DNA from: an uncultured Candidatus Saccharibacteria bacterium
Lineage (GTDB): Bacteria > Patescibacteriota > Minisyncoccia > Phycocordibacterales > UBA6899
DNA length: 64,000 nt
Direction of reading: 5' to 3'
Assembly (NCBI GenBank): GCA_964469335.1
Contig: CAYXYK010000003.1
Span: forward strand, 196,674 to 260,673
The number at the start of each line of letters is the position of its first letter. Within the stretch, counting starts at the first letter, position 1. The position numbers were made by a program, and so were the translations under genes. The notes under the pieces were generated by a model, which was not told the origin of the DNA, searched no databases, and saw only the letters and a program-made list of their open reading frames with translations. This document shows, one piece after another, positions 6,446 through 19,735 of this stretch.

Positions 6446-6610
6446 GGAAGGCGAGTCGTGACTGGCATCTCCGGTGGGCGATACTTCTACGAAAAAGCTA
6501 AACCTGGTGTTGGGGGTCTTCCCACAACTTGGCTTATACAAAATCGCCGTCGGATACGAAGTAGGGAAACACACCCTCAAAGGGAACCCCACCCCCTAGG
6601 CCACCCCAGA

Positions 6611-6640
6611 GCCCCAGAACGTACTTCTGGGGCGCTTTTG
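6611..6640 (+). terminator. Putative intrinsic terminator
   Basis: ccccagaa-cgtac-ttctgggg hairpin followed by cgcttttg, about 165 nt downstream of the 5735..6445 gene. Confidence 0.45.
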
Positions 6641-6836
6641 CAAATACCGCTCAAGGGCACTCCTCGCTGCCGCCTCGCACTGCATCCCAAATTCCGCGTC
6701 CCACGATAAGTAGGTGAGACACGGTTCTATTGTCTAAGCAATTCGTTTGCTTTAGTTAAATGAAATGCTAGGATAATCCGTATTACAGCCAGTGGCCCCT
6801 ATGTAGCTCTCTGACCGTCCAGATTATTTAGATTTT

Positions 6837-9035
6837 ATGCATCCCGCAAAAAAAATACTAAAATCATTCAAAATTGATGCACGTACAGTCATTAATCTTG
6901 GTCGTGATAGCATAAAAAATCCGACAACTGCGATTTTGGAACTAGTAAAAAATAGTTATGATGCAGACGCGACTATTGTTGAAGTAGTAATTGGAGAAAA
7001 TGATATTCGCATAGCAGACAATGGAGTGGGAATGACTGAGTCGCATCTTGAAAAAAATTGGCTACGTATTGGTTATTCTGAAAAGCGCAAAGAAAAAATA
7101 AGTAAAAAGTTCCGTCGTAAAACTGGGGAAAAAGGTATAGGGCGGCTCTCCACTGATAGGCTGGGCGAGTATCTTTCTCTTCGCACTAAGGCAGAAAATT
7201 CAAGCCCGCTTCAGATGAGCGTAGATTGGGAAAGTTTTAATGTTGAAGGAAAAGAGCTATCACAGATTCCAGTTGAAATCATTGAAATCTCCTCACTCGA
7301 AATCCCCGCATCTAAGAAAGGAGCGGGAACGGAAATCAATATTTCCCGCCTTCGACAAAAATGGAATAAAGCAGATATTGAGCAACTCTACAGTGAACTA
7401 ACTGGGCTCCTTTCGCCATTTGCTGGGACATCTGATTTTCAGATTTTTTTCCACAGTTATTTAGTAGAAGAATTAAATGGACCAGTTAGATCTTCATATT
7501 ACGAAGCAGCTGAGGTAGCAATAAAGGCAAAATTCTCCGGAAAACAAAATAAGATTGAGTATCAAATTATAGATATAAACGCAAGGAAAAAAAGTAAACC
7601 TAAGAAACAACACATAACATGGGATCAACTTTCCCAAAGATTAAATGCATCTGATATCGGCTTCAATCCTGATTTGGTATGCGGCCCAATTTCCCTAGAG
7701 ATTCTTTATTTTGGTAGAACCAAAAGTAATCCTTTGCTGGAAGAAAAGGGATTTACTCTTGCGGGGTTACGTCGTTTTCTTGATAAAAATCAGGGGATTA
7801 AAATATACAGAGACGGCATAAGTGTTAAGCCTTATGGTTACAACAATGAACCAGCTGGAGACTGGTTAGGGCTTGCGCACAGAAAAGAGCGTGACCCCGC
7901 TGGACTCCTGAGACCCTCATATAAGGTATCTTCATATCAGCTTGTTGGAGCTGTCTCAATGAGTAGAGACTTAAACCCACAATTGAGAGATGGAGCTTCT
8001 AGAGAGGGTTTTGTTGAAAATGAAGCCTTTAATGATTTACGTGCTCTTACTTTATCTTGTGTCACCTTGCTTGAAAAATATAGACACGAGAAGGCGGTAA
8101 AAGAAAAAAAGCTCTCGAAGTCTAAAAAAGGCCTATTGGAAGATGTGGAAGGGTATAAAGATGACCTTGAGAGTTTTCAGAAAAAACTTGAAGAATTAAA
8201 GAGTAGGCTAGAGAATGACAAAACAAAAGACAGTAAAGAATCTGTTGCTGAACTAGCAGAGGTTATTCAGCAAACAGAAGCGACAAAAAAAAGGGTTGAA
8301 GAACTTCTCGATAATAATCGAGTTCTGAGCGGTCTTGCCACTGTTGGTATCGCTGCTGCTGTCTTTGGCCACGAAACTCAAACTGCCGTCTCGCTTTTTA
8401 AATCCAGTGTTTCTGCGGCACAATCCTTCCTTACTTTGCGATCTGGTCCGAATACAAAAAAAGCACTGGAGCAGCTGACTGCCTCCTTGACATATGCTAA
8501 ACAAGTCTCTTCTTGGGGTGCTTTTGCTATGGCTCGTGTACGGAAAGATAAAAGAACCCGACAAAAAATAAATATTAAGAATACCATTGAAGCAGTACTC
8601 GATGAGGTTGAGGATGCTTTTGGGGTGATAAAAATTGAAATAATTAGAGAACTAAAAGAGGTCAATGCAAAAGCCTTTGTTATGGACATAGAATCAATTG
8701 TTTTGAACCTTATGACCAATGCATATACTGCGTGTACCCATTCCGCACACTCCCGGAAAGTGAGAGTAGAACTTACTCAAAAGAATGAAGGAGGGGTTGA
8801 GGGCTTTGAAATAGTAGTAGCGGATAGTGGCCCAGGGGTTGATAAAGCAATTTCGGATATGATTTGGGAGCCGCTTTATACCACAAAAAAGGACAAAACA
8901 GGCAGAGAAGATGGGACAGGCTTGGGGCTTACAATAGTCAAGACAACAGTAGAAGAATTAGGCGGAATTCGTGACGTTAACAAGGATCCTAAACTCAAAG
9001 GAGCTCGATTTCGCGTCTGGCTCCCCACTAATTAG
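6837..9035 (+). CDS. Cytoplasmic GHKL ATPase / histidine-kinase-like protein: N-terminal MORC-type HATPase_c_3-like module plus C-terminal HisKA-like and HATPase_c modules
   Basis: N-terminus ILELVKNSYDADATIVEVVIGENDIRIADNGVGMT...GEKGIGRLS (Bergerat-fold N and G1 boxes). Coiled coil around aa 420-500. Candidate H-box FGHETQTAV. C-terminus NLMTNAYTA...VVADSGPGVD...GTGLGLTIVKTTVEELGG (N, G1, G2 boxes). No transmembrane segment. Confidence 0.75.
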   Translation: MHPAKKILKSFKIDARTVINLGRDSIKNPTTAILELVKNSYDADATIVEVVIGENDIRIADNGVGMTESHLEKNWLRIGYSEKRKEKISKKFRRKTGEKGIGRLSTDRLGEYLSLRTKAENSSPLQMSVDWESFNVEGKELSQIPVEIIEISSLEIPASKKGAGTEINISRLRQKWNKADIEQLYSELTGLLSPFAGTSDFQIFFHSYLVEELNGPVRSSYYEAAEVAIKAKFSGKQNKIEYQIIDINARKKSKPKKQHITWDQLSQRLNASDIGFNPDLVCGPISLEILYFGRTKSNPLLEEKGFTLAGLRRFLDKNQGIKIYRDGISVKPYGYNNEPAGDWLGLAHRKERDPAGLLRPSYKVSSYQLVGAVSMSRDLNPQLRDGASREGFVENEAFNDLRALTLSCVTLLEKYRHEKAVKEKKLSKSKKGLLEDVEGYKDDLESFQKKLEELKSRLENDKTKDSKESVAELAEVIQQTEATKKRVEELLDNNRVLSGLATVGIAAAVFGHETQTAVSLFKSSVSAAQSFLTLRSGPNTKKALEQLTASLTYAKQVSSWGAFAMARVRKDKRTRQKINIKNTIEAVLDEVEDAFGVIKIEIIRELKEVNAKAFVMDIESIVLNLMTNAYTACTHSAHSRKVRVELTQKNEGGVEGFEIVVADSGPGVDKAISDMIWEPLYTTKKDKTGREDGTGLGLTIVKTTVEELGGIRDVNKDPKLKGARFRVWLPTN

Positions 9036-9039
9036 TGCT

Positions 9040-9738
9040 ATGGAAAAGATGAAGTTGGCAATAGTTGACGATCGAAAGGAAACAAGGAATGTCGTTGTTG
9101 ATGTTATTGCTAATGCACTCGACAATCTTGAGATGACTGGCAAATGGTCTGTTTTGGGGGTACCACCCCTGTCTACATTAAAGGAGTACCCAGAGTGGAT
9201 AATTAGGGAAAATGTAGGTATTTTAATCGTGGATGAAAGATTGGGAGAAGTTCCAAATGCCTCAGGCAAGATTGCGGATTACAAAGGGAGTGATTTGGTG
9301 GCATTGCTTCGAACACAGTATAAAGAAATGCCTATTTATGGTGTTACTGCGTATCATGCTGACGACTCCCTTCAAGAGCATTTCTCTCTTTTCGACGATG
9401 TTGTTGAAAGAAGTGACTTCGCAGCAAAAACAGTCCAGTATATTGGCAGATTCCTGAGAACATATCAAAATTTTTTTGAAGAAAACGAGAAAGAGCTCAC
9501 TGAGCTTTCAAAGATTTCAAAAAAAATTGCCATTGGTACTGCAAGCAAGTCTGAAAAAAATAGGGCAGAGGCGATACAGAGAAATCTCGAGATACCAGTT
9601 AGTACCATTTCTATTGCAAATAGAAAAGAATGGCTTGACGACTATGAAAAAATATTAAATATATTTACTGAAACGCAAAATAAAGCGAACAAAATTTTGG
9701 ACAAAAATAAAACAAAAATAAAAGATAAGAAAAAATGA
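9040..9738 (+). CDS. Receiver (REC) domain protein with a lysine-rich helical C-terminus
   Basis: KLAIVDDRKE (acidic pocket), ILIVDERLGE (candidate phospho-Asp) and YGVTAYH (conserved Thr). Start set at ATG 9040, 4 nt after the upstream stop; the ORF track gives 8971 as an alternative start. Confidence 0.55.
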   Translation: MEKMKLAIVDDRKETRNVVVDVIANALDNLEMTGKWSVLGVPPLSTLKEYPEWIIRENVGILIVDERLGEVPNASGKIADYKGSDLVALLRTQYKEMPIYGVTAYHADDSLQEHFSLFDDVVERSDFAAKTVQYIGRFLRTYQNFFEENEKELTELSKISKKIAIGTASKSEKNRAEAIQRNLEIPVSTISIANRKEWLDDYEKILNIFTETQNKANKILDKNKTKIKDKKK

Positions 9739-10385
9739 AATGGTCATTAATTCACAAAAAAGCAAACCCAGCACTTGAGAAGCATGGTTATCGCGATCAT
9801 CGAGTGAGGGAATTTTTAAGACAAGAAGGACTTTTGCGTTGTGCATATTGTGCTGTTCATGAGAATGCTGTCGGGGGAGTCCAGGCATTTCATATTGACC
9901 ACTACAAACCCAAGAAAAAGTTTCCTGCTTTAACGAATTCACTCTCCAATCTCTTTTATGTTTGCCCCATCTGCAATCGATTTAAGTCAGATGATTGGCC
10001 TGCAAATCCTCGCCCCACGTTTAGTAATAGCTCATATCCAAATCCGTCGAAGGTAGATTACAGCAAGCTGTTTGACGTTAGTTCTAGTGACTATGTGGTT
10101 AGTGGCCTGTTTGTGGCCTCAAAATATATAGTAGAAAAGCTATACCTTAATCGACCTCAGTTGATTTTGGAGCGGCGCTACTATTACCTAAACCAAAAAT
10201 TTGAATATCTGAGTTCGAATTATTTACCTATAATTAATGGTTTGAGTTCCATTGGAAATAAAGAGGCAATTGAATGTATAGTAAAACTTGCTGAAATCAG
10301 TGGTAAACTCAATGAACTACATTCTGCCTTAAAAACAATACCGTTATATGAAGTAGCAGATGTGACAAAGAGGAAAAAGAAATGA
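9735..10385 (+). CDS. HNH family endonuclease (candidate restriction endonuclease)
   Basis: CAYCAVHE ... HIDHYKPKKK ... YVCPICNRFK: a Cys4 zinc-finger HNH motif. The start overlaps the upstream stop (ATGA). Confidence 0.7.
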   Translation: MKWSLIHKKANPALEKHGYRDHRVREFLRQEGLLRCAYCAVHENAVGGVQAFHIDHYKPKKKFPALTNSLSNLFYVCPICNRFKSDDWPANPRPTFSNSSYPNPSKVDYSKLFDVSSSDYVVSGLFVASKYIVEKLYLNRPQLILERRYYYLNQKFEYLSSNYLPIINGLSSIGNKEAIECIVKLAEISGKLNELHSALKTIPLYEVADVTKRKKK

Positions 10386-12019
10386 ACTTAAAAAAGGAAA
10401 CAGGCTCATATTACACACCACATATCCTATCGGATTTCATGGTTTTTCACCTGTTTTCAGAATATAAATTTCCTAAAAATATAAATATTTTGGAGCCTAG
10501 CGCCGGAGACGGAGTATTCTTTGATTCGCTTTTTAATAATCAAGTTTTTAAAAATAAGTTTAAACTTCCCAAAAAAATAATCATTGATGCTGTTGAAATT
10601 GAAAAGGTAGCGATGCGTCATCTGGAAGTGAAAACGAGAGATTATATTTCAAAATCAAGTGAAATAAACTACACCCAGGAGGATTATTTGAAATACCAGC
10701 ATAAGAATAAAAAGAAGTTTGATTTGGTTTTGGGGAACCCACCTTACATAAAAAGTAGTCTTTTAAATAAAACTCAGATTGAGTTTTGTGAACAAATCCA
10801 TAAAACTGCCGGGCTTGATAATAAGAAAATTAAGAATATATGGACAAGTTTTTTGATTGCTGGCGTAGACTCTCTGAATAAAGACGGGGTACTCTGCTTC
10901 GTACTTCCTGCTGAGTTGTTGCAGGTCATATATGCTAAAGAACTAAGAAACTATCTACGAGATAATTTTCAGAGAATTGAGATTTTTACCTTCAACGAAC
11001 TTATTTTCCCAGATATTGATCAAGATGTTATCGTTCTTATTTGCGCAAAAAAGCAAAACGCGGGTGTTTCTTTCTATCACGTAGAAAAGCTTGATGATCT
11101 AAAAAAGCCAACATATGTTAAGGAAAATGATAACATCCATCGCCAAACTCTAGATAAATGGACTAATTACATTTTATTAGACAATGAACTTAAGTTTTTA
11201 GATTCTCTAAAAACTCGTTTCTCTCCAATCAAAGACTATTGTCGAGCGGAAGTTGGTATTGTTACTGCAGCAAATGATTATTTCATCGTTAATAAAGAAA
11301 CTATTGAGAAATATCACTTGCAAAATGTTGCAAAGCCAATTTTGCAGAAAAGTTCTTTGATGCCAGCAACAATTAACTTTACAAAACTTGACCAGAAGAG
11401 CATTTCTAAAAAAAACAAGCCTTCATACTTTCTTAGATTTGAAGATGTTAATAAAAAAGTATTTTCAAAAGAAATACAAGAGTATCTAAAGATTGGCGAA
11501 GGTCGAAAAATAAACGAACGATATAAATGCAAGCTTCGAAGCAATTGGTACCACGTACCCTCAGTTTGGATTTCTGAAGGGTTCTTTACGAAGCGCTCAA
11601 ATTTATTTCCTAGGATGGCAGTAAATGATGCTAAGTCATACTCTACTGATGCATTTTATAGAATTAAAATGAAGGAACAAAACAATGTTAAAGATCTTGT
11701 ATTTTCATTTTACAATACTTTGACGTTAATTTTTGCTGAGCTAGAGGGACGTTACTATGGTGGGGGAGTGCTCGAGCTAACTCCTAATGAGTATAAGAAT
11801 TTATCTATACCATATTGTAAAAATATAAAGGATTCTACATTTGCAAAGTTAGATAAAATGTTGAGATCTAAGACAGATATAAAAGAAGTTCTAAACTATA
11901 CAGACAAAATAATTTTAAAAGAGAATTACAAAATGTCTGATCAGGAAATTTCCAGGTTGTCTAAGATTTATTCAAAACTTGTTACTCGGAGATTAAAAAA
12001 TAGAAAACTTAGTTTTTAG
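10382..12019 (+). CDS. N6-adenine DNA methyltransferase, gamma class (Eco57I/TaqI-like), candidate Type II modification enzyme
   Basis: Motif I ILEPSAGDGVFF precedes motif IV LVLGNPPYIKS. Long C-terminal region is a likely target-recognition domain. Start overlaps the HNH stop (ATGA). Confidence 0.8.
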   Translation: MNLKKETGSYYTPHILSDFMVFHLFSEYKFPKNINILEPSAGDGVFFDSLFNNQVFKNKFKLPKKIIIDAVEIEKVAMRHLEVKTRDYISKSSEINYTQEDYLKYQHKNKKKFDLVLGNPPYIKSSLLNKTQIEFCEQIHKTAGLDNKKIKNIWTSFLIAGVDSLNKDGVLCFVLPAELLQVIYAKELRNYLRDNFQRIEIFTFNELIFPDIDQDVIVLICAKKQNAGVSFYHVEKLDDLKKPTYVKENDNIHRQTLDKWTNYILLDNELKFLDSLKTRFSPIKDYCRAEVGIVTAANDYFIVNKETIEKYHLQNVAKPILQKSSLMPATINFTKLDQKSISKKNKPSYFLRFEDVNKKVFSKEIQEYLKIGEGRKINERYKCKLRSNWYHVPSVWISEGFFTKRSNLFPRMAVNDAKSYSTDAFYRIKMKEQNNVKDLVFSFYNTLTLIFAELEGRYYGGGVLELTPNEYKNLSIPYCKNIKDSTFAKLDKMLRSKTDIKEVLNYTDKIILKENYKMSDQEISRLSKIYSKLVTRRLKNRKLSF

Positions 12020-12050: not shown

Positions 12051-12620
12051 ATGAACATTGTTATATTGGGATGGGGCTCTCTATTGTGGGATAAAAATAT
12101 AAATTTTGATGAAACACATAAGGAATGGCTATTCGACGGCCCAAGTTTACCGTTAGAGTTTTCTCGTGTGTCAGAATCGAGAGGAGGAGCGCTAACGCTC
12201 GTAATTGATACTCAAAATGGAACCAAATGCCAAGTTGCGTATTCTTTGAGTATCAGGAAGACACTACGTGATGCCATAAATGACTTGACCAAAAGAGAGG
12301 GAACATCAACAAAACGAATAGGTTTTGTTGATGTGCTGTCTGGTAGTATTTCAGATGACGAGATTTCTCTTGGAATTAAATCTTGGGCGAAGGAACATGA
12401 TATTGAAGCAGTAGTATGGACAAATCTGCAGAGTAATTTTTGGGATAAAGTTGGAGAGAAATTTAGCGTCGAATCTGCGGCCACTTATCTTACTTCACTC
12501 GCAGAAGAGTCAAAAATAGAAGCTCTGAAATATATTAAATCGGCACCAGAATTTGTCCAAACACCACTGAGGAAGGAGTTCGAGATAAGGTTGGCCACAA
12601 ATGAGTTTGGAGAAAAGTGA
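12051..12620 (+). CDS. Hypothetical protein
   Basis: 189-aa ORF in the AT-rich island between the two R-M modules; no family recognised. Confidence 0.45.
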   Translation: MNIVILGWGSLLWDKNINFDETHKEWLFDGPSLPLEFSRVSESRGGALTLVIDTQNGTKCQVAYSLSIRKTLRDAINDLTKREGTSTKRIGFVDVLSGSISDDEISLGIKSWAKEHDIEAVVWTNLQSNFWDKVGEKFSVESAATYLTSLAEESKIEALKYIKSAPEFVQTPLRKEFEIRLATNEFGEK

Positions 12621-12659: not shown

Positions 12660-13067
12660 ATGACTGAGAAAAAAACGGACACATACGAGACGTTAGAATT
12701 CTGGCTAGGTGATGACTGGAAGAAAATTTCTGATGAACACAAGAGGATTTTAGCAGATAAGCTTGATTCACTTACAGATACAAATTTCGAAACGACAAAG
12801 GGTTTGTTTGAAAGAATACGCGACCGTCGTGAGATTCAGGGAGTGCTCATTTTGGGCGTAGTGCTCGGTATCCTAGGAAACTTAGTTGCTAATTATCTTG
12901 ATAGATATTTCCTCCGTTTTGGCTTTGCGTATTCGCTTGTGGTATCAGTAGGTTTTATTGTTGTGTATATTATTTTGAACCGAGCATTTGATAAAGGAAT
13001 CTCATCAATGGTGAGGAGCAATCCAACCCTACGTGCGATGATCGTCGAGAAAACCGAAAAGAAATAA
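12660..13067 (+). CDS. Hypothetical small membrane protein (2 predicted transmembrane helices)
   Basis: Hydrophobic segments VLILGVVLGILGNLVANYL and FAYSLVVSVGFIVVYIIL. Confidence 0.4.
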   Translation: MTEKKTDTYETLEFWLGDDWKKISDEHKRILADKLDSLTDTNFETTKGLFERIRDRREIQGVLILGVVLGILGNLVANYLDRYFLRFGFAYSLVVSVGFIVVYIILNRAFDKGISSMVRSNPTLRAMIVEKTEKK

Positions 13068-13199: not shown

Positions 13200-15581
13200 A
13201 TGTCGCAGGAGGCATATTCTCGTGTTGTGATCGACCGAAAACTTCGTGAATCTGGTTGGGATATTGAGGATTCCCGTCAGGTTGTTTTTGAAGACCACGG
13301 AAACGCTGGTAGAGCTGATTATGTACTTAAGGATGGCTCTGGGAGGGCTATTGCACTCATTGAGGCTAAGAAACCAGAGATAGACCCCTACAGTGCAAAG
13401 AAACAGGCTTCTGATTACATAGAACTCCAGTATCCTCATGTGCGGTTTATTTATCTAGCTAACGACAAGCTAATTTACTTCTGGGATTTGGACGGAGGCG
13501 GAGACGCTCAAGTTGTCCCAGCGTTCTACTCCCAAGACGATTTGGTTCGTCGCCAGAGTGTTCGATCTCAAAATCTCGCTAAGAAACTAACAGAAGAGAC
13601 AATTCAAAAAGATTACTTCACCGATGTTGCTGACAGCGCAATCCTCCGTCCATACCAGCTCTCGGCATGGGAAACTATTGCTGATGGATATGATGCTGGG
13701 AAGCGTGCTTTCTTGCTGGAGATGGCTACGGGAACAGGAAAGACAATGCTCGCGTCTCTCATCATTTCTCGTTTCTTGCGCACAAACAACGCACAAAACG
13801 TTCTCTTTCTTGTAGACCGTAAATCACTCGCCATTCAAACCAAGAACACATTCGAGCGACTTCTTCGGGGAGTGTCGGCTGTCGGAACATACTGGGGCTC
13901 AAACAGGAAGAACCTCACGGGGTCAAACGTAGTGGTTGCCACAATTCAGTCTCTCATGCTCCACGGTGCACGTGATTTCTCGTCGGGATACTTCGACCTC
14001 ATCATCCACGACGAAGCACACCGAAGCATCTACTCCCCAGAGGCTCGTTCAGCAGTTGACCACTTCGTGGGAGTAACCAAGATTGGTCTGACTGCTACTC
14101 CTCGTGATTTCTTGAAGAATATTGACCTTGAACAGCTCAATGCAAAAGATCCTCGTAAACTAGAGCGCAGAGTACAGCGTGATACATATTCATATTTTGG
14201 TTGTGAACAAGGGGTGGCAACGTATCGCTACACGATACAAGACGGTGTGAGTGAGAAGTTTCTTGTTCCGCCAAAGTATCACAAGATGAAAACCTCGATT
14301 ACTCAACAGGCATTGTCTGACGAAGGTATAACGACTCTCGCTGACGTTGATCTCGAAGAGGGTGAAAGCATCAAAGTGAAAGACCTTGAAAAGAAGGTGC
14401 ATTTCCCTGAGCGGAATCGTCGCATGATGCAGGAATTTCTTGAACATGCAGTGCGCACACCAGACGGAGAGATCGGAAAGACACTTATCTTTGCGGTATC
14501 GCAAAATCACGCACTCGCACTAGAGAAAATACTGAATGAGCTGAAGCCCGAGTACGGAGGAAAGTTTGCAATGACCATCACTTCGCGAGTGCAGGGGGCT
14601 CATGATATTGCTAAGGATTTCTCGAAAGAGACAAGTAAGCTCCCACGAGTGGGAGTGACGGTAGAAATGCTCGCTACGGGCTTTGATTGCCCTGAGATAC
14701 TCAACATTGTTCTGGCTCGTCCAATATTTGATCCTGTGAGCTACCAGCAGATTAAAGGGCGCGGTACACGTCTGTGCCCAGAGATAAACAAAAAAGAATT
14801 TGTGGTGTTCGACTTCTGTGGTGTCGTTGAATATTTTGACGAGAAGTACGACTGGGAAGCACCAATCGTCCTGCCTCCCGTTGGTGGTGGAAATACAAAT
14901 GAGGGCGGAGCGGAGAGTGGAGGTGGAACAACATGCATAGGAATCGATGGAGAAGGAGGTGAGCCAGAAGAACGCATTTCACAAACACCAGATGTGGTGC
15001 TTTCTCGCGACATCATTACACTTCCTGAAGGTGATACGGTAGATAAAAACATGTATCGCGACGAGTGGACAAAGGCGGTGCAAGATTTCATGAGTAAGAG
15101 AGGCGAGTTGGTCGCATCCGCTCTTGAAGACGAAGATAAGGTAGAGGAGCTCATCGCAGAAATCAACGCCACACTACTCAATCAGCCCAAGCTTTACTTC
15201 AACGAGGAAAATCTCCAAATATCACACCGTATCGTCGCTGGCGTGCGAGAGTTCTTCCTTTCTGCTGTAGGAAAGCAATCGCTCCCAACCCGCGATGAAC
15301 AGCTCACTGGGTTCAAGCAGGCATTGGTCAACAAGTTTGCCCAATCAGATAAGCCAGAAGCCACCTTCAAGAGAGCCGTTATGGGGGAGTTCATTGCAGA
15401 TCAAGCTATTACAAACGACCACTTCCGAAAGTCTGTTATCGAGAAGCCAACACTCGACTTTTTGCGCTGGGACGAGTTTGAGCAAGCTTACTCGGTTACA
15501 GAGTGGCTCAATGTTTTCACAAAAGATGAGCTCACTGAATTGGTTTCGGATATTTCAAATGCACGCATTCTGAAGATTTAA
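13200..15581 (+). CDS. hsdR: Type I-like restriction enzyme R subunit (N-terminal PD-(D/E)xK nuclease plus SF2 DEAH helicase)
   Basis: N-terminal HsdR_N-like segment VVIDRKLRESGWDI...ADYVLKD...IALIEAKK. Helicase motif I LEMATGTGKT, motif II IIHDEAHRS, motif VI QIKGRGTR. At 793 aa it is short for a canonical HsdR. Confidence 0.75.
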   Translation: MSQEAYSRVVIDRKLRESGWDIEDSRQVVFEDHGNAGRADYVLKDGSGRAIALIEAKKPEIDPYSAKKQASDYIELQYPHVRFIYLANDKLIYFWDLDGGGDAQVVPAFYSQDDLVRRQSVRSQNLAKKLTEETIQKDYFTDVADSAILRPYQLSAWETIADGYDAGKRAFLLEMATGTGKTMLASLIISRFLRTNNAQNVLFLVDRKSLAIQTKNTFERLLRGVSAVGTYWGSNRKNLTGSNVVVATIQSLMLHGARDFSSGYFDLIIHDEAHRSIYSPEARSAVDHFVGVTKIGLTATPRDFLKNIDLEQLNAKDPRKLERRVQRDTYSYFGCEQGVATYRYTIQDGVSEKFLVPPKYHKMKTSITQQALSDEGITTLADVDLEEGESIKVKDLEKKVHFPERNRRMMQEFLEHAVRTPDGEIGKTLIFAVSQNHALALEKILNELKPEYGGKFAMTITSRVQGAHDIAKDFSKETSKLPRVGVTVEMLATGFDCPEILNIVLARPIFDPVSYQQIKGRGTRLCPEINKKEFVVFDFCGVVEYFDEKYDWEAPIVLPPVGGGNTNEGGAESGGGTTCIGIDGEGGEPEERISQTPDVVLSRDIITLPEGDTVDKNMYRDEWTKAVQDFMSKRGELVASALEDEDKVEELIAEINATLLNQPKLYFNEENLQISHRIVAGVREFFLSAVGKQSLPTRDEQLTGFKQALVNKFAQSDKPEATFKRAVMGEFIADQAITNDHFRKSVIEKPTLDFLRWDEFEQAYSVTEWLNVFTKDELTELVSDISNARILKI

Positions 15582-15582
15582 T

Positions 15583-17493
15583 ATGGACACCATCTCAACA
15601 TACAAAAGCAGAATAGACGGGCTGATGAATATTCTCTTTGGTGCAGGGGTTTCCAACCCTCAAACCATCATCGAGCAAATTAACTACTTGCTCTTTCTGC
15701 GCGCTCTCTCAGTCAAAGACGACGAGGCAGAGCTTCTTGGTATCGCCGATGAATCAGGCAAGATCTTCACGGGCAAGCTATCGAAGTACAAATGGTCAAA
15801 TCTCCTCGCACTGAACGCCGAGGATCTGTTCAAAATACTTGAGGAGTCTTATGGCGCGATTCAAAAAGAATCTGCGAATGCAACAGTAAAGCTCTTGTTC
15901 CGCAATGCCCATGTAAAGATTTTCGACAAGCCTACGCTCCGCAGGGTGCTTCACGAGATCGAGGAGTTTTCGAAGGAACTCGACACCATTGCCCACGAAG
16001 GCAACAAGGACGTGTTTGGGGATATGTATGAGTTCCTTCTCTCGAAGCTTTCCTCTGCGGGAACGAACGGGCAATTTCGCACCCCACGACACATAATCGA
16101 CTTCATGATCCGAGTACTCGACCCAAAGATTGGCGAGACGATACTTGATCCCGCTTGTGGCACGGCAGGTTTTCTTGTTGCCGCCTACCGCTATATTGCG
16201 GGCGAGTATACGAGCGACAAGATGAAGAAGGCAGGCAGTCCACGTGCAATGGACAAGCTCTCGTCCGAGGAAAAGAATTTTCTCTATAATCACATGTTCA
16301 CGGGCTTCGACAGTGACGAGGACATGATCAAGTTCGGAATGATGAACTTGCATTTGCACGGACTTACGAAATCTCATCTTGTTCGTCAAAATACGCTGAC
16401 TGATACAACTGGGTACAAGGCGAAGTTTGATGTCATTCTCGCCAACCCTCCTTTCAGTGGAAAGCTCGACGAGGAAAGCGTATCGGAAGACATTCGCATG
16501 GGGACAAAAGCGACTGAGCTTCTTTTCTTACGTTTTATGATAGACCACCTATCAAACAGAGGGAAAATGGCGGTGGTAGTGCCAGAAGGTGTGCTCTCAA
16601 GTTCTTCAAGGGCAAACACGAGGGTTCGTGAAATGTTGCTAGAAAATGGTCTATGGTGTGTCGTTTCACTTCCCAAAGGTATTTTTAATCCATATGCAGG
16701 TGTTAAAACCAACATTATATTTCTTGATAAGTTATTTGCCAGTAAGTCGAAAAATATTCTGTTTGTAACACTAGCAAATGATGGCTTTGAGCTTACTGCA
16801 CAGAGACGAGCTACGCAGAAAAATGATTTACCTGAAATATTAGAATTGTTATCAAGATGGAAGATGGACGAAAACACAGAAAGTACTCTCATAAAATCGG
16901 TCGAAAAATCAAAAATTATCGACAATGCCGACCACACTCTCTTGAAAGAGCAGTATGAAATTAACAGTAGGCACACAAAGGCAAAATACCCAATGATAAA
17001 GTTGGGAGAGCTTTGTGAAATTAAGACTGGAAAGAAGGATGTAAATGAAGGAAACCCAGATGGGGAATATCCTTTTTTTACTTGCGCCAAAGAGCCAACT
17101 CGAAGCGATAGTTATTCTTTCGACACAGAAGCCCTGCTTATTGCTGGCAACGGTGATGTTGGTGCTGTAAAGTATTATCTCGGGAAGTTTGAGGCATATC
17201 AAAGAACATATGTTTTGGTGAATTTTGAAAAAAGTGTTTTACCAATGTTCATTTATCACTATCTTGACGCGACGCTTAAACCCATTGTATCTGCACAAAA
17301 ATTAGGTAATACGATGCCATATATAAAAATGGGAATGCTATCAAATTTTGAGATATCTCTTCCGCCCCTAGAAATCCAGCAACAAATTGTCTCTGAAATT
17401 GAGAGTCATCAGCTTGCGGTAGATGAAGCCTACGAAGAAGCCGAAAGACAAAAGAGGAAAATCAAAGAGAGGATCGACAAGATTTGGGAGTAA
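15583..17493 (+). CDS. hsdM: Type I restriction-modification methyltransferase HsdM with a fused C-terminal single target-recognition domain (HsdS-like)
   Basis: N-terminal HsdM_N-like region. SAM motif ILDPACGTAGFL. Catalytic ILANPPFSG. C-terminal ~180 aa resemble an HsdS TRD plus conserved helix (LGELCEIKTGKKD ... LPPLEIQQQIVSEIE). Confidence 0.8.
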   Translation: MDTISTYKSRIDGLMNILFGAGVSNPQTIIEQINYLLFLRALSVKDDEAELLGIADESGKIFTGKLSKYKWSNLLALNAEDLFKILEESYGAIQKESANATVKLLFRNAHVKIFDKPTLRRVLHEIEEFSKELDTIAHEGNKDVFGDMYEFLLSKLSSAGTNGQFRTPRHIIDFMIRVLDPKIGETILDPACGTAGFLVAAYRYIAGEYTSDKMKKAGSPRAMDKLSSEEKNFLYNHMFTGFDSDEDMIKFGMMNLHLHGLTKSHLVRQNTLTDTTGYKAKFDVILANPPFSGKLDEESVSEDIRMGTKATELLFLRFMIDHLSNRGKMAVVVPEGVLSSSSRANTRVREMLLENGLWCVVSLPKGIFNPYAGVKTNIIFLDKLFASKSKNILFVTLANDGFELTAQRRATQKNDLPEILELLSRWKMDENTESTLIKSVEKSKIIDNADHTLLKEQYEINSRHTKAKYPMIKLGELCEIKTGKKDVNEGNPDGEYPFFTCAKEPTRSDSYSFDTEALLIAGNGDVGAVKYYLGKFEAYQRTYVLVNFEKSVLPMFIYHYLDATLKPIVSAQKLGNTMPYIKMGMLSNFEISLPPLEIQQQIVSEIESHQLAVDEAYEEAERQKRKIKERIDKIWE

Positions 17494-17715
17494 ACAGGAA
17501 GTGGGTAGCGGAATAGGAAGAGAAATGGGGGCAGGCATCAATTAATTCGAAAATGCGTTGTCTAATAATGCGGAAAATTTTTTGGTAGCGACCTAGATTT
17601 TTACGACCGTAGGAAGATAAAAATGGAAGTATTCTTTGTGGTGAATATGAAGATGGATCAAACAGGGGATACAACGACTGAGCCCCCGTTTTCCTCCTCT
17701 TTCCTTTTCTTGTCT

Positions 17716-17748
17716 ATACTCTAATTCGCGCGAATGTGCGAATAAGGA
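17716..17748. promoter_or_regulatory. Palindromic element ctaattcgcgcgaatgtgcgaat (copy 1), candidate ArsR-family operator
   Basis: Imperfect inverted repeat taattcgc / gcgaatta about 60 nt upstream of the ArsR-like gene; near-identical copy at 18087-18112. Confidence 0.4.
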
Positions 17749-17807
17749 AACGGCAGAGTGACATTGTGAAGACTGGACGAGAAAATTCCTTGTGTTAGTT
17801 TTCGGGA

Positions 17808-18092
17808 ATGAAGCAAGAAACCAAGGCAGACATCAAGACTCTCGAGAAACAGATGAAGGCGCTCGCCAATGCCCGCCGCCTTGCGATCCTCAGGTATCTC
17901 AAGAAGAATAAGGAAGCTACGGTGGGAGATATTGCCGAGGAGATCAAGCTATCTTTCAAGTCGACATCCAAGCACCTCGCCATTCTCTACGCAGCAGGAG
18001 TCCTCGAGAAAGACCAGCGCAACATCGCGGTTTTCTATCGCCTCACGGTAGCTCCCCACACCATCGCAAAACACATTCTCTCTATGCTCTAA
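17808..18092 (+). CDS. ArsR/SmtB-family transcriptional regulator
   Basis: wHTH RLAILRYLKKNKEATVGDIAEEIKLSFKSTSKHLAILYAAGVL. Confidence 0.7.
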   Translation: MKQETKADIKTLEKQMKALANARRLAILRYLKKNKEATVGDIAEEIKLSFKSTSKHLAILYAAGVLEKDQRNIAVFYRLTVAPHTIAKHILSML

Positions 18093-18115
18093 TTCGCGCG
18101 AATGTGCGAATTAGC
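18085..18115. promoter_or_regulatory. Palindromic element ctaattcgcgcgaatgtgcgaattag (copy 2); may act as operator and/or terminator hairpin
   Basis: Stem ctaattcgc / gcgaattag overlaps the stop of the ArsR-like gene and precedes the 18160 gene. Confidence 0.4.
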
Positions 18116-18159
18116 TCTCGCAAGTTCACAATCCCGTTTCGGCAGGGTACGCTGAGAGT

Positions 18160-18474
18160 ATGAATAAGAATATTGTCGGTATCGCCGTGTTCGCAGTCGG
18201 ATTGCTGCTTATCATTGGGTACTTTGCACTTCAGTTTCAAAAAGTGAATATCACTGCTGCATACATTGCTCCGCCGGGTGCGTGGGAGAGCGGAACATAC
18301 TTCAACGCAGATCATGGAGTCTGCGAGTTCCGATTGGGAACACAGCTCTCTGCATATCATGACTGCACATTCGTGAGTTATGTCATCTACGGAACTCCGA
18401 AGCTCATTGTCATTCCGTATATACTGTTGTTCGCAATGTGGTTTGTGTATCAAAAGAGAAAAAAGAAAACCTAG
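18160..18474 (+). CDS. Small membrane protein, hypothetical
   Basis: 104 aa with two hydrophobic helices, downstream of the ArsR-like gene and the palindrome. Confidence 0.45.
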   Translation: MNKNIVGIAVFAVGLLLIIGYFALQFQKVNITAAYIAPPGAWESGTYFNADHGVCEFRLGTQLSAYHDCTFVSYVIYGTPKLIVIPYILLFAMWFVYQKRKKKT

Positions 18475-18537
18475 TCAGCCACTAGCGAGATCCGCACCGC
18501 TGCAGGATAGTTCGATATTTCTTGGTACAATAAGGGT

Positions 18538-18723
18538 ATGGATAAGAAGAAGCGGAGTTGGATCATGGAGGTATTCATGTCAGGAAGTATGGTCATGGGT
18601 GCTTTTATGAACGTGATGCACAATGTCATTTCTGGACGTGAGACCACCGCAATCACCCGCATGCATGATGAAAAGAAAGCGCACACCGAACACAACAATG
18701 ATGCACCCAAAGCCGAACCCTAA
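18538..18723 (+). CDS. Small hypothetical protein (61 aa)
   Basis: ORF only; weak support. Confidence 0.25.
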   Translation: MDKKKRSWIMEVFMSGSMVMGAFMNVMHNVISGRETTAITRMHDEKKAHTEHNNDAPKAEP

Positions 18724-18756
18724 GCATAGCTCGGACGAATAGCGCTCATCCCCTCA

Positions 18757-18790
18757 CGTAAATCATTCCAACATTCTGCAGAATGTTGGA
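18757..18790. promoter_or_regulatory. 30-nt perfect palindrome cattccaacattctgcagaatgttggaatg, candidate operator
   Basis: Perfect inverted repeat immediately upstream of or overlapping the start of the second ArsR-like gene; second copy at 19160-19200. Confidence 0.45.
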
Positions 18791-19177
18791 ATGTTCGTAA
18801 AGATTGCAAAACTCATTGGCGGGAGTAGTTTTTTGGGTATGCTATACCACAAACCGAAAAAAACAGGGACGAATGTCGGGGTGAGAGTTGGAGTAGAAAG
18901 GGGAAGCGGTCCAAAGACCGTCAAGCAGCTCGAGCGCTACTTCAAGGGAGCAGCGAATCACAACCGCATCGCCATTCTCCTTGTAGTCGCAAAGGAGCCG
19001 GGGATCACTGTTGATCAGCTCACCGAGCGACTCGACGGCAACCTTAAGACTATTTCACAACACACGCATTCACTAGTCCGTGCAGGACTCTTGAATAAAT
19101 CGTACAAGGGACGCATGGTCGCCCACGAACTTTCTCCCTACGGCCGCCGCTTCGTCTCCTTCATCAAATCATTCTAA
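18791..19177 (+). CDS. ArsR/SmtB-family transcriptional regulator (start codon uncertain)
   Basis: KQLERYFKGAANHNRIAILLVVAKEPGITVDQLTERLDGNLKTISQHTHSLVRAGLL. Confidence 0.65.
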   Translation: MFVKIAKLIGGSSFLGMLYHKPKKTGTNVGVRVGVERGSGPKTVKQLERYFKGAANHNRIAILLVVAKEPGITVDQLTERLDGNLKTISQHTHSLVRAGLLNKSYKGRMVAHELSPYGRRFVSFIKSF

Positions 19178-19200
19178 CATTCTGCAGAATGTTGGAATGA
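19160..19200. terminator. Second copy of the 30-nt palindrome with flanking A/T runs (probable bidirectional terminator)
   Basis: aaatcattctaacattctgcagaatgttggaatgatttttt. Confidence 0.45.
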
Positions 19201-19211
19201 TTTTTTGAGAT

Positions 19212-19250
19212 AAAAAATCGCGCCGCACCTTGTGGGTGCGGCGGGGGGGG
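19212..19250 (-). terminator. Conserved terminator hairpin, copy 1 (minus-strand function)
   Basis: aaaaaa-tcgcgccgcaccttgtgggtgcggcgg-gggggg on the plus strand. On the minus strand this reads as C-run, hairpin, U-run, immediately 3' of gene 19251..19592. Confidence 0.6.
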
Positions 19251-19592: not shown

Positions 19593-19698
19593 TGGTCACT
19601 CCGTAGTTGTTCTGATTATGATTTTGCATGTGAAATTGAATTTGTCAACCTATCAACAACAACCAGATCCATACTGCTCTCGGGTAAGTTCGTTAATA

Positions 19699-19735
19699 TA
19701 AAAAAACGCGCCGCACCTTGTGGGTGCGGCGGGGC
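19699..19735 (-). terminator. Conserved terminator hairpin, copy 2
   Basis: aaaaaaacgcgccgcaccttgtgggtgcggcggggcg. Confidence 0.6.

What the first reader, a model, noticed from the sequence alone, without database searches (positions are those of the whole stretch)
6837..12019. Four-gene coupled operon linking a GHKL/histidine-kinase-like ATPase and a receiver domain to an HNH nuclease and an N6-adenine methyltransferase
Seen directly: four plus-strand genes with minimal spacing (4-nt gap between the first two, then ATGA stop/start overlaps). They encode (1) a 732-aa cytoplasmic protein with an N-terminal MORC-type GHKL module, a coiled coil, a candidate H-box (FGHETQTAV) and a C-terminal histidine-kinase ATP-binding domain; (2) a receiver-domain protein; (3) an HNH endonuclease; (4) a gamma-class N6A DNA methyltransferase with a C-terminal target-recognition region. 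Established knowledge: HNH plus gamma-MTase is a standard Type II R-M pair, and bacterial MORC-like GHKL ATPases are known to associate with R-M systems. Two-component anti-phage systems (for example Detocs) are also described. Inference: I do not recognise a described system in which a GHKL/HK hybrid plus a standalone receiver is translationally coupled to an HNH-MTase pair. This may be a phosphorelay-gated restriction system or a new multi-gene defence system. The AT-rich composition marks it as horizontally acquired.
Basis: partly seen in the sequence, partly recalled or inferred. Interest (0 to 1): 0.85.

Follow-up and report, generated by a model that had tools for sequence, protein, structure and literature searches.

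The report
Ambrosia-type phosphorelay restriction system variant
The four genes are real and form a conserved anti-phage cassette, but it is not a new kind of system: its kinase-like ATPase, receiver protein and HNH nuclease are homologues of the AbrB, AbrC and AbrD proteins of 'Ambrosia', a defence system validated in Pseudomonas in a 2025 preprint, here carrying a different methyltransferase in a candidate-phyla-radiation bacterium.

Summary
There are four tightly packed plus-strand genes at 6837-12019 (a 4-nt gap, then two ATGA overlaps). They encode a soluble protein with a MORC/Hsp90-like GHKL module, helices, a DHp with invariant His512-Glu513 and a kinase CA domain; a divergent receiver with a helical tail; a PtuB-like HNH; and an M.Eco57I-like NPPY N6-adenine methyltransferase.

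The claim that no such system has been described does not hold. Bellieny-Rabelo et al. (2021) described HATPase_c_3/DHp/HATPase_c proteins paired with receiver-like proteins next to R-M genes. A 2025 bioRxiv preprint validated 'Ambrosia' (AbrR XRE, AbrA N6-MTase, AbrB, AbrC, AbrD) as anti-phage, with the GHKL Asn, the receiver Asp and the HNH His all essential. Window g1, g2 and g3 match AbrB, AbrC and AbrD (37%, 27% and 34% identity), and those mutated residues align. g4 is unrelated to AbrA, lies downstream rather than upstream, and there is no XRE gene.

Across 80 related loci from many phyla, the kinase, receiver and HNH genes are syntenic and co-diverge (rho 0.72-0.78). The methyltransferase is exchangeable (rho 0.27).

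Verdict: a new variant of a known kind, in a Patescibacteria defence island. The sensed signal and the receiver's output are still unknown.

The parts
6837..9035 (+). g1, AbrB-like sensor kinase-like ATPase (732 aa), soluble. It has an N-terminal MORC/MutL/Hsp90-type GHKL domain, an alpha/beta middle domain, long helices, a DHp and a C-terminal histidine-kinase CA domain.
   Evidence: Pfam HATPase_c_3 and HATPase_c. 37% identity to AbrB residues 12-397, E 2e-68. In the AF2 model, the N-terminal ~460 residues match Hsp90/GRP94 and the C-terminal ~250 match HK853, CpxA and ZraS. More than 1500 homologues were found.
6951..6953 (+). g1 Asn39 (ELVKNSYDA), the Mg-ATP-binding Asn of the N-terminal Bergerat fold. 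It corresponds to AbrB N40.
   Evidence: Invariant in alignment A1. Aligned with AbrB ELVKNAYDA. The AbrB N40A mutation abolishes Ambrosia defence. Codon verified.
8370..8372 (+). g1 His512 (VFGHETQTA), the predicted phospho-accepting histidine of the DHp. It is followed by invariant Glu513.
   Evidence: V509, F510, G511, H512, E513 and T514 are invariant in 19 diverse homologues. The profile aligns GHET onto S-H260-E-L of HK853 (E 1e-19). His512 sits at the start of helix 512-533 in the model. Codon verified.
8562..9032 (+). g1 catalytic ATP-binding (CA) domain, with an N box (NLMTN), a G1 box (DSGPG) and a G2 box (GTGLGL).
   Evidence: Pfam HATPase_c at aa 617-731. These residues are invariant. 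Motifs verified. Foldseek and HMM hits to HK CA domains.
9040..9738 (+). g2, AbrC-like stand-alone response-regulator-like protein (232 aa). Receiver domain at aa 1-123, plus a conserved all-helical tail at aa 131-231. No DNA-binding domain was detected.
   Evidence: 27% identity to AbrC, E 9e-11. Profile hits to PhoP, CheY and NtrC. AF2 pLDDT ~90 over the receiver, and the top Foldseek hits are all receivers. No HTH family in Pfam for the tail of g2 or of AbrC. 403 representative clusters, all about 200-247 aa, with no fusions.
9232..9234 (+). g2 Asp65 (ILIVDERLG), the predicted phospho-acceptor. It corresponds to AbrC D60.
   Evidence: Invariant in 39 family members; D10 and T103 are nearly invariant. 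Aligned to AbrC AIILDEQL and to CheY D57. The AbrC D60A mutation abolishes defence.
9735..10385 (+). g3, AbrD-like HNH endonuclease (216 aa) of the PtuB/TIGR02646 type, with CxxC...CxxC zinc ligands and a helical C-terminal half. Its start overlaps the g2 stop (ATGA).
   Evidence: Pfam HNH. PADLOC PtuB 1e-20. NCBIfam TIGR02646/PtuB. 34% identity to AbrD, E 2e-20. C36, H56, N72, C77 and N81 are conserved in at least 90% of 55 sequences.
9900..9902 (+). g3 His56 (FHIDHY), the catalytic HNH histidine. It corresponds to AbrD H60.
   Evidence: Alignment. The AbrD H60A mutation abolishes defence. Codon verified.
10382..12019 (+). g4, gamma-class N6-adenine DNA methyltransferase (545 aa) with an M.Eco57I-type C-terminal target-recognition domain. 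SAM motif EPSAGDG; catalytic NPPY at 10736-10747. It is not homologous to AbrA. Its start overlaps the g3 stop (ATGA).
   Evidence: Pfam M_Eco57I_C 1e-38, Eco57I and N6_Mtase. PADLOC MTase_II 8e-152. AbrA against g4 gives E 0.19. G42, G44 and N119-Y122 are conserved in 40 homologues. Motifs verified.

Best explanation
This is a member of the broader family that contains Ambrosia, an anti-phage defence system in which a cytoplasmic two-component phosphorelay controls an HNH nuclease and travels with a DNA methyltransferase.

The proposed sequence of events is as follows.
1. The N-terminal MORC/Hsp90-like ATPase module of g1 senses an infection cue. The cue is inferred to be a DNA or nucleoprotein state; this has not been shown.
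2. The C-terminal kinase domain of g1 then phosphorylates His512.
3. The phosphoryl group passes to Asp65 of the receiver protein g2.
4. Phosphorylated g2 switches on DNA cleavage by the PtuB-like HNH g3.
5. The g4 methyltransferase is an exchangeable accessory. It marks DNA at its own target sequence. Its exact role (self-marking or substrate-marking) is unresolved.

Shown here:
- homology of g1, g2 and g3 to AbrB, AbrC and AbrD, with conservation of the residues that were mutated in Ambrosia;
- synteny and co-divergence of the three-gene core;
- exchange of the methyltransferase between loci.

Taken from the preprint:
- anti-phage activity;
- the requirement for each gene and for the receiver Asp;
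- induction of the abrA and abrD positions during infection.

Inferred:
- the identity of the signal;
- whether g2~P acts on transcription or directly on the nuclease. I lean towards a protein-level switch, because neither g2 nor AbrC has a detectable DNA-binding domain.
For: Sequence homology to the validated system:
- AbrB(1-399) against g1: 37% identity over 400 aa, E 2e-68.
- AbrC against g2: 27% over 144 aa, E 9e-11.
- AbrD against g3: 34% over 173 aa, E 2e-20.
- AbrB N40 = g1 N39, AbrC D60 = g2 D65, AbrD H60 = g3 H56.

Experimental data for Ambrosia: plaque and burst-size defence in PAO1; the N40A, D60A, H60A and T72A mutants are all null; reporters replacing abrA or abrD are induced on infection.

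Kinase competence of g1: invariant H512-E513 aligned on HK853 H260 across DHp+CA, fold matches to full HK cytoplasmic portions, and intact N, G1 and G2 boxes.

Receiver competence of g2: invariant D65, near-invariant D10 and T103, a K/R at the end of beta5, and a receiver fold.

Conservation: the order c0-c1-c2 is found in 54 of 78 loci. These span Patescibacteria, Bacteroidota, Gemmatimonadota, Planctomycetota, Acidobacteriota, Myxococcota, Verrucomicrobiota, Chloroflexota, Bacilli, Dependentiae, Legionella and others.

Co-divergence (Spearman rho): 0.73 for HK-RR, 0.78 for HK-HNH and 0.72 for RR-HNH, against 0.27 for HK-MTase. The methyltransferase is replaced by an AbrA-type enzyme (c8) or by c22 in about 10 loci, on either side or strand.

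Context: a low-GC island that also carries a Type I R-M system.
Against: - Ambrosia's experimental evidence is a single preprint on a Pseudomonas homologue that is only 27-37% identical. Nothing has been tested for this clade.
- g4 is not an AbrA homologue and there is no AbrR/XRE gene, so regulation may differ.
- The authors' HMM cut-offs could not be applied.
- No Pfam HisKA, HEF_HK, Response_reg or Response_reg_2 model reaches threshold on g1 or g2.
- The preprint favours transcriptional control and reports a wHTH in AbrC, which I could not see but also cannot exclude for AbrC itself.
- No receiver-HNH fusions were found that would prove direct coupling.
- The AF2 models are of moderate confidence (pLDDT 74 and 80).
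Confidence: 0.8

Rival explanations
1. This is an ordinary Type II R-M pair (HNH endonuclease g3 plus methyltransferase g4), and it happens to sit next to an unrelated or only transcription-regulating two-component pair.
For: HNH plus a gamma N6A methyltransferase is a common R-M combination (established knowledge). PADLOC labels g4 as MTase_II (8e-152) and the g1 N-terminus as REase_II. DefenseFinder labels AbrB and AbrA as Type II REase and MTase (Table S1 of the preprint).
Against: The HNH co-diverges with the kinase and the receiver (rho 0.78 and 0.72) but much less with the methyltransferase (0.41); kinase against methyltransferase gives 0.27. The methyltransferase family, side and strand vary while the HK-RR-HNH order is fixed. 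Two Akkermansiaceae contigs show the core with no methyltransferase in view. In Ambrosia every gene is needed, and phage grown on an AbrA-expressing host is still restricted.
Confidence: 0.07
2. This is the transcription-only model of the Ambrosia preprint. Phosphorylated g2 is a DNA-binding activator that induces the operon on infection. The nuclease and methyltransferase are otherwise constitutively active enzymes kept silent by low expression.
For: mNeonGreen placed at the abrA or abrD position is barely expressed without phage and strongly expressed during infection. D60A abolishes defence. The authors report a wHTH in AbrC. XRE-type regulators lie directly upstream of the kinase gene in about 9 loci.
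Against: The g2 tail is modelled as three long helices with no beta-hairpin wing. No HTH family is detected in the tail of g2 or of AbrC, even at E<=10. Profile hits for the tail are only coiled-coil or designed helical bundles. In the window, all four genes are translationally coupled in one operon with the kinase first, so induction would have to be auto-amplifying. In sister clades the receiver is fused to a conserved non-HTH C-terminal domain with invariant D, C, D, D and R residues, or is followed by a metallo-beta-lactamase-fold protein, which points to enzymatic outputs.
Confidence: 0.3
3. g1 is not a signalling kinase. It is the ATP-driven DNA clamp or motor subunit of a restriction complex, as proposed for MORC/paraMORC proteins and for the GHKL-bearing HgiDII/BbrUII restriction enzymes. 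In this view the HK-like and receiver-like parts are structural relics.
For: NCBIfam 'BbrUII/HgiDII family restriction enzyme' matches g1 aa 11-188 (7.6e-25). MutL N-terminal hits (3e-8). Hsp90-like N-terminal plus middle fold. Iyer et al. 2008 place MORC/paraMORC proteins in R-M operons with HNH nucleases. The AbrB mutation tested in Ambrosia (N40A) lies in the N-terminal GHKL, not in the kinase domain.
Against: The H-box His-Glu, the N, G1 and G2 boxes and the receiver Asp/Asp/Thr are invariant or nearly so over deep divergence, which argues for a working phosphotransfer chemistry. The AbrC D60A mutant is null. The two roles are not mutually exclusive: the clamp may be the sensor.
Confidence: 0.15

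Closest known systems
Ambrosia (AbrR-AbrA-AbrB-AbrC-AbrD), P. aeruginosa; bioRxiv 10.1101/2025.09.30.679545
   Same: It has the same functional component set: a HATPase_c_3+HATPase_c kinase-like ATPase, a stand-alone receiver protein of about 210-230 aa with a helical tail, a PtuB/TIGR02646-type HNH of about 215 aa, and an N6-adenine methyltransferase. g1, g2 and g3 are sequence homologues of AbrB, AbrC and AbrD (37%, 27% and 34% identity). The residues mutated in Ambrosia are conserved.
   Different: The methyltransferase belongs to another family (M.Eco57I-like, 545 aa with a TRD, against AbrA at 448 aa; E 0.19). It lies downstream of the HNH instead of upstream of the kinase. There is no XRE/AbrR gene. 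The host is a Patescibacteria (CPR) bacterium, whereas the preprint reports Ambrosia only in Gammaproteobacteria. AbrA-type variants in the Ambrosia gene order do occur among the relatives (L004, L037, L079; Klebsiella plasmid L081).
TCS-like HEF_HK / Response_reg_2 pairs next to R-M systems (Bellieny-Rabelo, Pretorius & Moleleki 2021, PMC8011034)
   Same: The kinase-like architecture is identical (HATPase_c_3, a DHp with His followed by an acidic residue, HATPase_c; soluble). The receiver-like gene is adjacent and R-M genes are enriched nearby. The proteins fall in one BLAST cluster with members that touch the HEF_HK and Response_reg_2 models (L069: 1e-4 and 1e-3).
   Different: Window g1 and g2 do not match PF19191 or PF19192. 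That family is mainly linked to C5 methyltransferases, Vsr and HNH_2. Its receiver proteins are longer (about 355-405 aa) and carry a conserved extra C-terminal domain. It has been described only computationally.
Prokaryotic MORC/paraMORC ATPases of R-M systems (Iyer, Abhiman & Aravind 2008, PMC2292703), and the HgiDII/BbrUII GHKL-bearing restriction enzymes
   Same: An N-terminal MutL/MORC-type GHKL plus a middle domain, in operons with HNH nucleases and methyltransferases.
   Different: Those proteins lack the DHp, the second (kinase-type) GHKL domain and the partner receiver.
Septu (PtuA ATPase + PtuB HNH) and Detocs (DtcA kinase, DtcB/DtcC receivers)
   Same: g3 is PtuB-like (PADLOC 1e-20), an HNH partnered with a coiled-coil ATPase.
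   Different: There is no PtuA ABC-type ATPase. There is no Hpt or PNP effector, and no PADLOC hit to any Detocs protein.

Membership tests
Ambrosia defence system | AbrB: HATPase_c_3 + HATPase_c kinase-like ATPase of about 750 aa with the conserved GHKL Asn (N40) | tested here: met
   g1 against AbrB(1-399): 37% identity, E 2e-68. N39 aligns with N40. Only the first 399 residues of AbrB were available from Table S1.
Ambrosia defence system | AbrC: stand-alone receiver protein with the phospho-acceptor Asp (D60) | tested here: met
   g2 against AbrC: 27% identity, E 9e-11. D65 aligns with D60. Receiver fold.
Ambrosia defence system | AbrD: PtuB/TIGR02646-type HNH with the catalytic His (H60) | tested here: met
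   g3 against AbrD: 34% identity, E 2e-20. H56 aligns with H60. Same PtuB/TIGR02646 hits.
Ambrosia defence system | AbrA: the specific N6-adenine methyltransferase family, encoded upstream of abrB | tested here: not met
   AbrA against g4: E 0.19. g4 is M.Eco57I-like and lies downstream. AbrA homologues (cluster c8, 31-37% identity) occur in other related loci but not in the window.
Ambrosia defence system | AbrR: HipB-like XRE regulator at the head of the cluster | tested here: not met
   No HTH-like ORF of at least 25 aa in 6446-6840. XRE genes are present upstream in L013, L033, L048-L050, L052, L064 and L071.
Ambrosia defence system | Authors' HMM bit-score cut-offs (AbrA 100, AbrB 500, AbrC 150, AbrD 200) | not testable with these tools
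Ambrosia defence system | Anti-phage activity that depends on every gene | not testable with these tools
   This needs cloning and plaque assays.
HEF_HK / Response_reg_2 TCS-like pair (Pfam PF19191 / PF19192) | The kinase-like protein matches HEF_HK | tested here: not met
   No PF19191 hit for g1 or its aa 422-621 segment, even at E<=10. The relative L069 reaches 23.1 bits against a cut-off of 24.1.
HEF_HK / Response_reg_2 TCS-like pair (Pfam PF19191 / PF19192) | The adjacent protein matches Response_reg_2 | tested here: not met
   No PF19192 hit for g2; only a sub-threshold Response_reg hit at E 0.017-0.029.
HEF_HK / Response_reg_2 TCS-like pair (Pfam PF19191 / PF19192) | Architecture HATPase_c_3 + DHp(His-acidic) + HATPase_c, soluble, with the receiver gene adjacent and R-M genes nearby | tested here: met
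Classical two-component system (HisKA-type kinase + receiver) | Conserved phospho-acceptor His in a DHp helix, followed about 110 residues later by the N, G1 and G2 boxes | tested here: met
   Invariant H512-E513 aligned to HK853 H260. N624/N628, DSGPG and GTGLGL are present. No Pfam HisKA model passes threshold.
Classical two-component system (HisKA-type kinase + receiver) | Receiver with an acidic pair, a phospho-acceptor Asp, a Thr/Ser and a Lys | tested here: inconclusive
   D10-D11, D65 and T103 are present and conserved. The beta5 position is K or R across the family and is Arg124 in the window. Phosphotransfer was not tested.
Type II restriction-modification system | The methyltransferase protects DNA from the cognate nuclease, and the nuclease/methyltransferase pair is the co-inherited unit | tested here: not met
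   The co-inheritance part was tested: the HNH tracks the kinase and receiver, not the methyltransferase, and the methyltransferase family is swapped between loci. Protection was not testable here. In Ambrosia, phage grown on an AbrA-expressing host stayed sensitive.

The most novel reading that the evidence does not exclude
The receiver protein has no DNA-binding domain and acts as a phosphorylation-dependent protein switch that directly licenses the HNH nuclease. The MORC/Hsp90-like clamp of the kinase reads a physical property of incoming DNA, for example the absence of the partner methyltransferase's mark. In that case self/non-self discrimination happens at the sensor, and the signal is passed to the nuclease by His-Asp phosphotransfer. 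This would be a true 'phosphorelay-gated restriction' mechanism, distinct from the transcriptional model proposed for Ambrosia. It would also explain why the three-gene core accepts many different methyltransferases.
Probability: 0.25. Interest if true: 0.7.

Novelty: new variant of a known kind. Interest (0 to 1): 0.4.

Why it matters
The preprint reports Ambrosia only in Gammaproteobacteria and as a five-gene unit. This locus and its 50-odd relatives give a different picture. The conserved, co-evolving unit is the kinase-like ATPase, the receiver and the HNH. That unit is spread across at least a dozen phyla, including genome-reduced CPR bacteria. The methyltransferase and the XRE regulator are interchangeable or dispensable accessories. 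This narrows where the mechanism must lie (sensor, then receiver, then HNH). It supplies natural variants for testing what the methyltransferase does. It also flags that annotation pipelines will label these loci as plain Type II R-M systems. It does not reveal a new class of system.

Tried and rejected
- Pfam, NCBIfam, PADLOC and PHROGs single-sequence scans of g2 gave nothing above threshold. Profile and structure comparisons were needed instead.
- phmmer of g2 against PDB sequences gave only noise (TNF ligands).
- An exact look-up of g1 in the contig index found nothing, so the source record could not be read. Host identity came from RpoD homologues instead.
- I looked for a mobile-element signature in the window and found no tRNA, no flanking direct repeats around 6.7-18 kb and no recombinase.
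- I looked for a regulator ORF or operator repeats upstream of g1. There is only a terminator-like hairpin at 6608-6636 and one 18-nt tandem pair at 6563-6598, inside the high-GC part.
- I looked for receiver-HNH or receiver-kinase fusions among 150 representative g2 relatives and found none.
- The consensus promoter and terminator scan of the island was not above shuffled expectation.
- g5 and g6 gave no hit in Pfam, NCBIfam, PADLOC, PHROGs or (g5 only) PDB sequences.
- The DefensePredictor paper mentions a predicted HATPase+REC system only in a figure legend, with no usable detail.
- I considered MADS (only weak mad2-type methyltransferase hits), Detocs (no hits) and Septu (only the HNH resembles PtuB). 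I rejected all three as the family.

Full report
**1. What is in the sequence**

Four plus-strand ORFs lie at 6837-9035 (g1, 732 aa), 9040-9738 (g2, 232 aa), 9735-10385 (g3, 216 aa) and 10382-12019 (g4, 545 aa). A TAG stop is followed by 'tgct' and then ATG at 9040. Two ATGA stop/start overlaps follow, at 9735-9738 and 10382-10385.

GC content is 0.31-0.41 between 7 and 13 kb, against 0.49-0.60 on either side. Upstream lie housekeeping genes (the end of rpoC, dnaG, rpoD) and a terminator-like hairpin at 6608-6636.

Downstream lie two small genes with no matches (g5 at 12051-12620; g6 at 12660-13067, which has a hydrophobic segment). After them comes a Type I R-M pair: an EcoAI-family HsdR at 13200-15581, and an HsdM fused to one S-type recognition domain at 15583-17493. 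The cassette therefore sits in a small defence island.

RpoD is 89-90% identical to proteins named Patescibacteria group and Candidatus Lloydbacteria. The host is therefore a CPR/Patescibacteria bacterium.

**2. The four proteins**

*g1.* It carries Pfam HATPase_c_3 (aa 30-150, 2e-23) and HATPase_c (aa 617-731, 6e-25). It has no hydrophobic segment.

- In an alignment of 19 homologues at 42-72% identity, both ATP-binding sites are invariant: E35/N39, D61xGxG, GEKGxG; and N624/N628, SG, GxGLGL. So is the motif V-F-G-H512-E-T.
- No Pfam HisKA-type model matches. However, a profile of the alignment matches the whole DHp+CA of HK853 at E 1e-19, with G-H-E-T laid on S-H260-E-L, which holds the known phospho-acceptor.
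- The AF2 model (pLDDT 74) shows a GHKL domain, an alpha/beta middle domain, long helices at 396-569 with His512 at the start of one, and a CA domain.
- Foldseek matches the C-terminal ~250 residues to HK853, CpxA and ZraS. It matches the N-terminal ~460 residues to the Hsp90/GRP94 N-terminal plus middle domains.
- The N-terminus also matches the NCBIfam 'BbrUII/HgiDII family restriction enzyme' model (7.6e-25) and MutL.

*g2.* It matches no family above threshold (Response_reg E 0.017-0.029).

- A 39-sequence family alignment has invariant D65 and P98, and near-invariant D10, G83 and T103.
- The profile of that alignment hits PhoP, CheY and NtrC receivers (7e-5 to 4e-4), with D65 on the phospho-acceptor.
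- The AF2 model (pLDDT ~90 over aa 1-130) is a (beta-alpha)5 fold, and all top Foldseek hits are receivers.
- Residues 131-231 are three long helices. No HTH is detectable.

*g3.* It is a zinc-ribbon HNH of the PtuB/TIGR02646 type, with conserved C36, H56, N72, C77 and N81.

*g4.* It is an M.Eco57I-like gamma N6A methyltransferase with the SAM motif, NPPY and a C-terminal recognition domain.

The HisKA and receiver calls rest on profile and structure evidence rather than on Pfam thresholds.

**3. Recurrence**

A scan of one genome per species returned 80 loci encoding g1 relatives. I clustered all their ORFs.

- The receiver-like gene (cluster c1) follows the kinase-like gene (c0) on the same strand in 54 of 78 loci. 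The HNH (c2) follows in about 52, and the g4-type methyltransferase (c3) in about 40.
- The hosts include Paceibacterota/Nomurabacteria (68-72% identical g1), Bacteroidota, Gemmatimonadota, Dependentiae, Legionella, Planctomycetota, Myxococcota, Acidobacteriota, Chloroflexota, Verrucomicrobiota, Bacilli, Saccharibacteria and Rickettsiales.
- In about 10 loci the methyltransferase is a different N6 enzyme (c8 or c22), placed upstream or on the opposite strand.
- Two Akkermansiaceae contigs show the core next to a TIR-NACHT-TPR gene, with no methyltransferase in view.
- Over 39 complete loci, pairwise identities co-vary strongly among kinase, receiver and HNH (Spearman 0.73, 0.78, 0.72). They co-vary weakly between kinase and methyltransferase (0.27).

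They do not vary independently of gene 3. Gene 4 is the loosely coupled module.

The receiver family has 403 representative clusters at 50% identity, all about 200-247 aa. No fusions occur among the best 150.

More distant g1 relatives (27-30% identity) form sister systems:

- In cyanobacteria, a receiver-like protein is followed by a metallo-beta-lactamase-fold protein.
- In actinobacteria and Ignavibacteria/Chitinophagaceae, longer receiver proteins carry a conserved C-terminal domain. These loci also carry C5 methyltransferases, Vsr, HNH_2, a HerA-like ATPase or a glycosylase.

**4. What is already known**

Bellieny-Rabelo et al. 2021 (PMC8011034) described soluble HATPase_c_3 + HEF_HK + HATPase_c proteins. 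These showed 91.6% linkage to Response_reg_2 proteins across 644 regions and were enriched next to Type II R-M genes. The authors proposed a new cytoplasmic two-component system related to paraMORCs. The window proteins do not match those two Pfam models. A distant relative and its neighbour touch them just below threshold, so the window belongs to a sister branch of the same superfamily.

A bioRxiv preprint of 30 September 2025 (10.1101/2025.09.30.679545) then named and validated Ambrosia. Its genes are AbrR (XRE), AbrA (N6 methyltransferase), AbrB (HATPase_c_3/HATPase_c), AbrC (receiver) and AbrD (HNH with PtuB/TIGR02646 hits). The preprint reports the following:

- The system protects P. 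aeruginosa PAO1 against two phage groups.
- The N40A (AbrB), D60A (AbrC), H60A (AbrD) and T72A (AbrA) mutants are all null.
- Reporters placed at the abrA and abrD positions are induced on infection.
- Phage grown on an AbrA-expressing host stay sensitive.
- No host toxicity was seen.

I compared the sequences printed in Table S1 of the preprint with the window proteins:

| Ambrosia protein | Window protein | Identity | E-value |
|---|---|---|---|
| AbrB (1-399) | g1 | 37% over 400 aa | 2e-68 |
| AbrC | g2 | 27% over 144 aa | 9e-11 |
| AbrD | g3 | 34% over 173 aa | 2e-20 |
| AbrA | g4 | not similar | 0.19 |

N40, D60 and H60 align with g1 N39, g2 D65 and g3 H56. AbrA instead belongs to cluster c8 (31-37% identity), the alternative methyltransferase seen in L004, L015, L020, L025, L027, L037 and L079. 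A Klebsiella variicola plasmid shows the Ambrosia gene order with a fragmented AbrB-like gene.

**5. How it most likely works**

I take the system to be an infection-triggered phosphorelay that controls an HNH nuclease.

- *Shown here:* both proteins retain every residue needed for His-Asp phosphotransfer, and the three-gene core is inherited as a unit.
- *From the preprint:* the GHKL Asn, the receiver Asp and the HNH His are each required for defence.
- *Inferred:* the N-terminal MORC/Hsp90-like clamp is the sensor, probably of a DNA or nucleoprotein state. Phosphorylated g2 is the switch.

The preprint proposes that AbrC is a wHTH transcription activator. I find no HTH in the tail of g2 or of AbrC by Pfam. 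The g2 model is all-helical beyond the receiver. Sister clades attach enzyme-like domains, not HTH domains, to the receiver. I therefore give a direct protein-level switch about equal or slightly greater weight than the transcription-only model. Both remain open.

The role of the methyltransferase is unresolved. Its exchangeability, and the sensitivity of phage grown on an AbrA-expressing host, argue against a classical Type II protective pairing.

**6. Novelty and score**

Three points are new here:

- a variant with a non-homologous, downstream methyltransferase and no XRE gene;
- its presence in CPR bacteria and many other phyla, whereas the preprint reports Ambrosia only in Gammaproteobacteria;
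- evidence that the kinase-receiver-HNH trio is the conserved core.

I class the finding as a new variant of a known kind, with an interest score of about 0.4.

Noticed in passing
window 17713-19734: Three consecutive small-gene units are each bracketed by their own pair of near-identical direct repeats that contain a palindrome. The pairs are 17713-17746 / 18081-18114 around an ArsR-type HTH ORF (17808-18092); 18760-18793 / 19166-19199 around a MarR/HTH_20 ORF (18791-19177); and 19205-19246 / 19693-19734 (GC-rich hairpin) around a minus-strand ORF (19251-19592).
   Followed up: no
window 12051-12620 and 12660-13067: Two small genes lie between the cassette and the Type I R-M system. g5 (189 aa) has no hit in Pfam, NCBIfam, PADLOC, PHROGs or PDB sequences, but a 37%-identical homologue lies next to the related cassette in an Archangiaceae MAG (L023). 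g6 (135 aa) has a strongly hydrophobic segment around aa 58-111.
   Followed up: partly
window 13200-17493: A second restriction system sits in the same low-GC island. It consists of an EcoAI-family HsdR (793 aa) and a 636-aa protein that fuses HsdM to a single S-subunit recognition domain. No separate hsdS gene is present.
   Followed up: partly
L035 7176-10373 and L036 3693-6860 (Akkermansiaceae MAGs): These loci carry the relatives closest to P. aeruginosa AbrB (43% identity). The kinase-receiver-HNH core lies beside a convergent ~1060-aa TIR/SEFIR-NACHT-TPR gene, and no methyltransferase is visible on the contig.
   Followed up: partly
L057-L060, L064, L069-L070, L072-L074, L076-L077 and L080 (genes immediately downstream of the g1 relative): In sister systems the receiver protein is about 355-405 aa and carries a conserved C-terminal domain of unknown fold. 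That domain has an invariant G-D...P-x-C-D...D...R-x-G-x-P signature and no Pfam match. It is a candidate enzymatic output domain.
   Followed up: partly
L047, L053, L061, L063, L067, L068, L075, L078, L079 (cyanobacteria and an Arenicellales MAG): This is another sister architecture: a g1 relative, then a ~235-aa receiver-like protein, then a ~335-aa metallo-beta-lactamase-fold protein in place of the HNH.
   Followed up: partly
L001 13136-14536, L002 6566-7885, L003 13153-14457: A large serine recombinase gene lies directly beside the four-gene cassette in the three closest (Paceibacterota) relatives, which suggests the cassette moves as a unit. No such gene is present in the window.
   Followed up: partly
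L081 (Klebsiella variicola plasmid pBM374-1, NZ_CP063918.1 127930-132799): This locus has the Ambrosia gene order (N-6 DNA methylase, AbrB-like, receiver-like, HNH-like), but the AbrB-like gene is annotated as three separate CDS, so it is probably disrupted.
   Followed up: no
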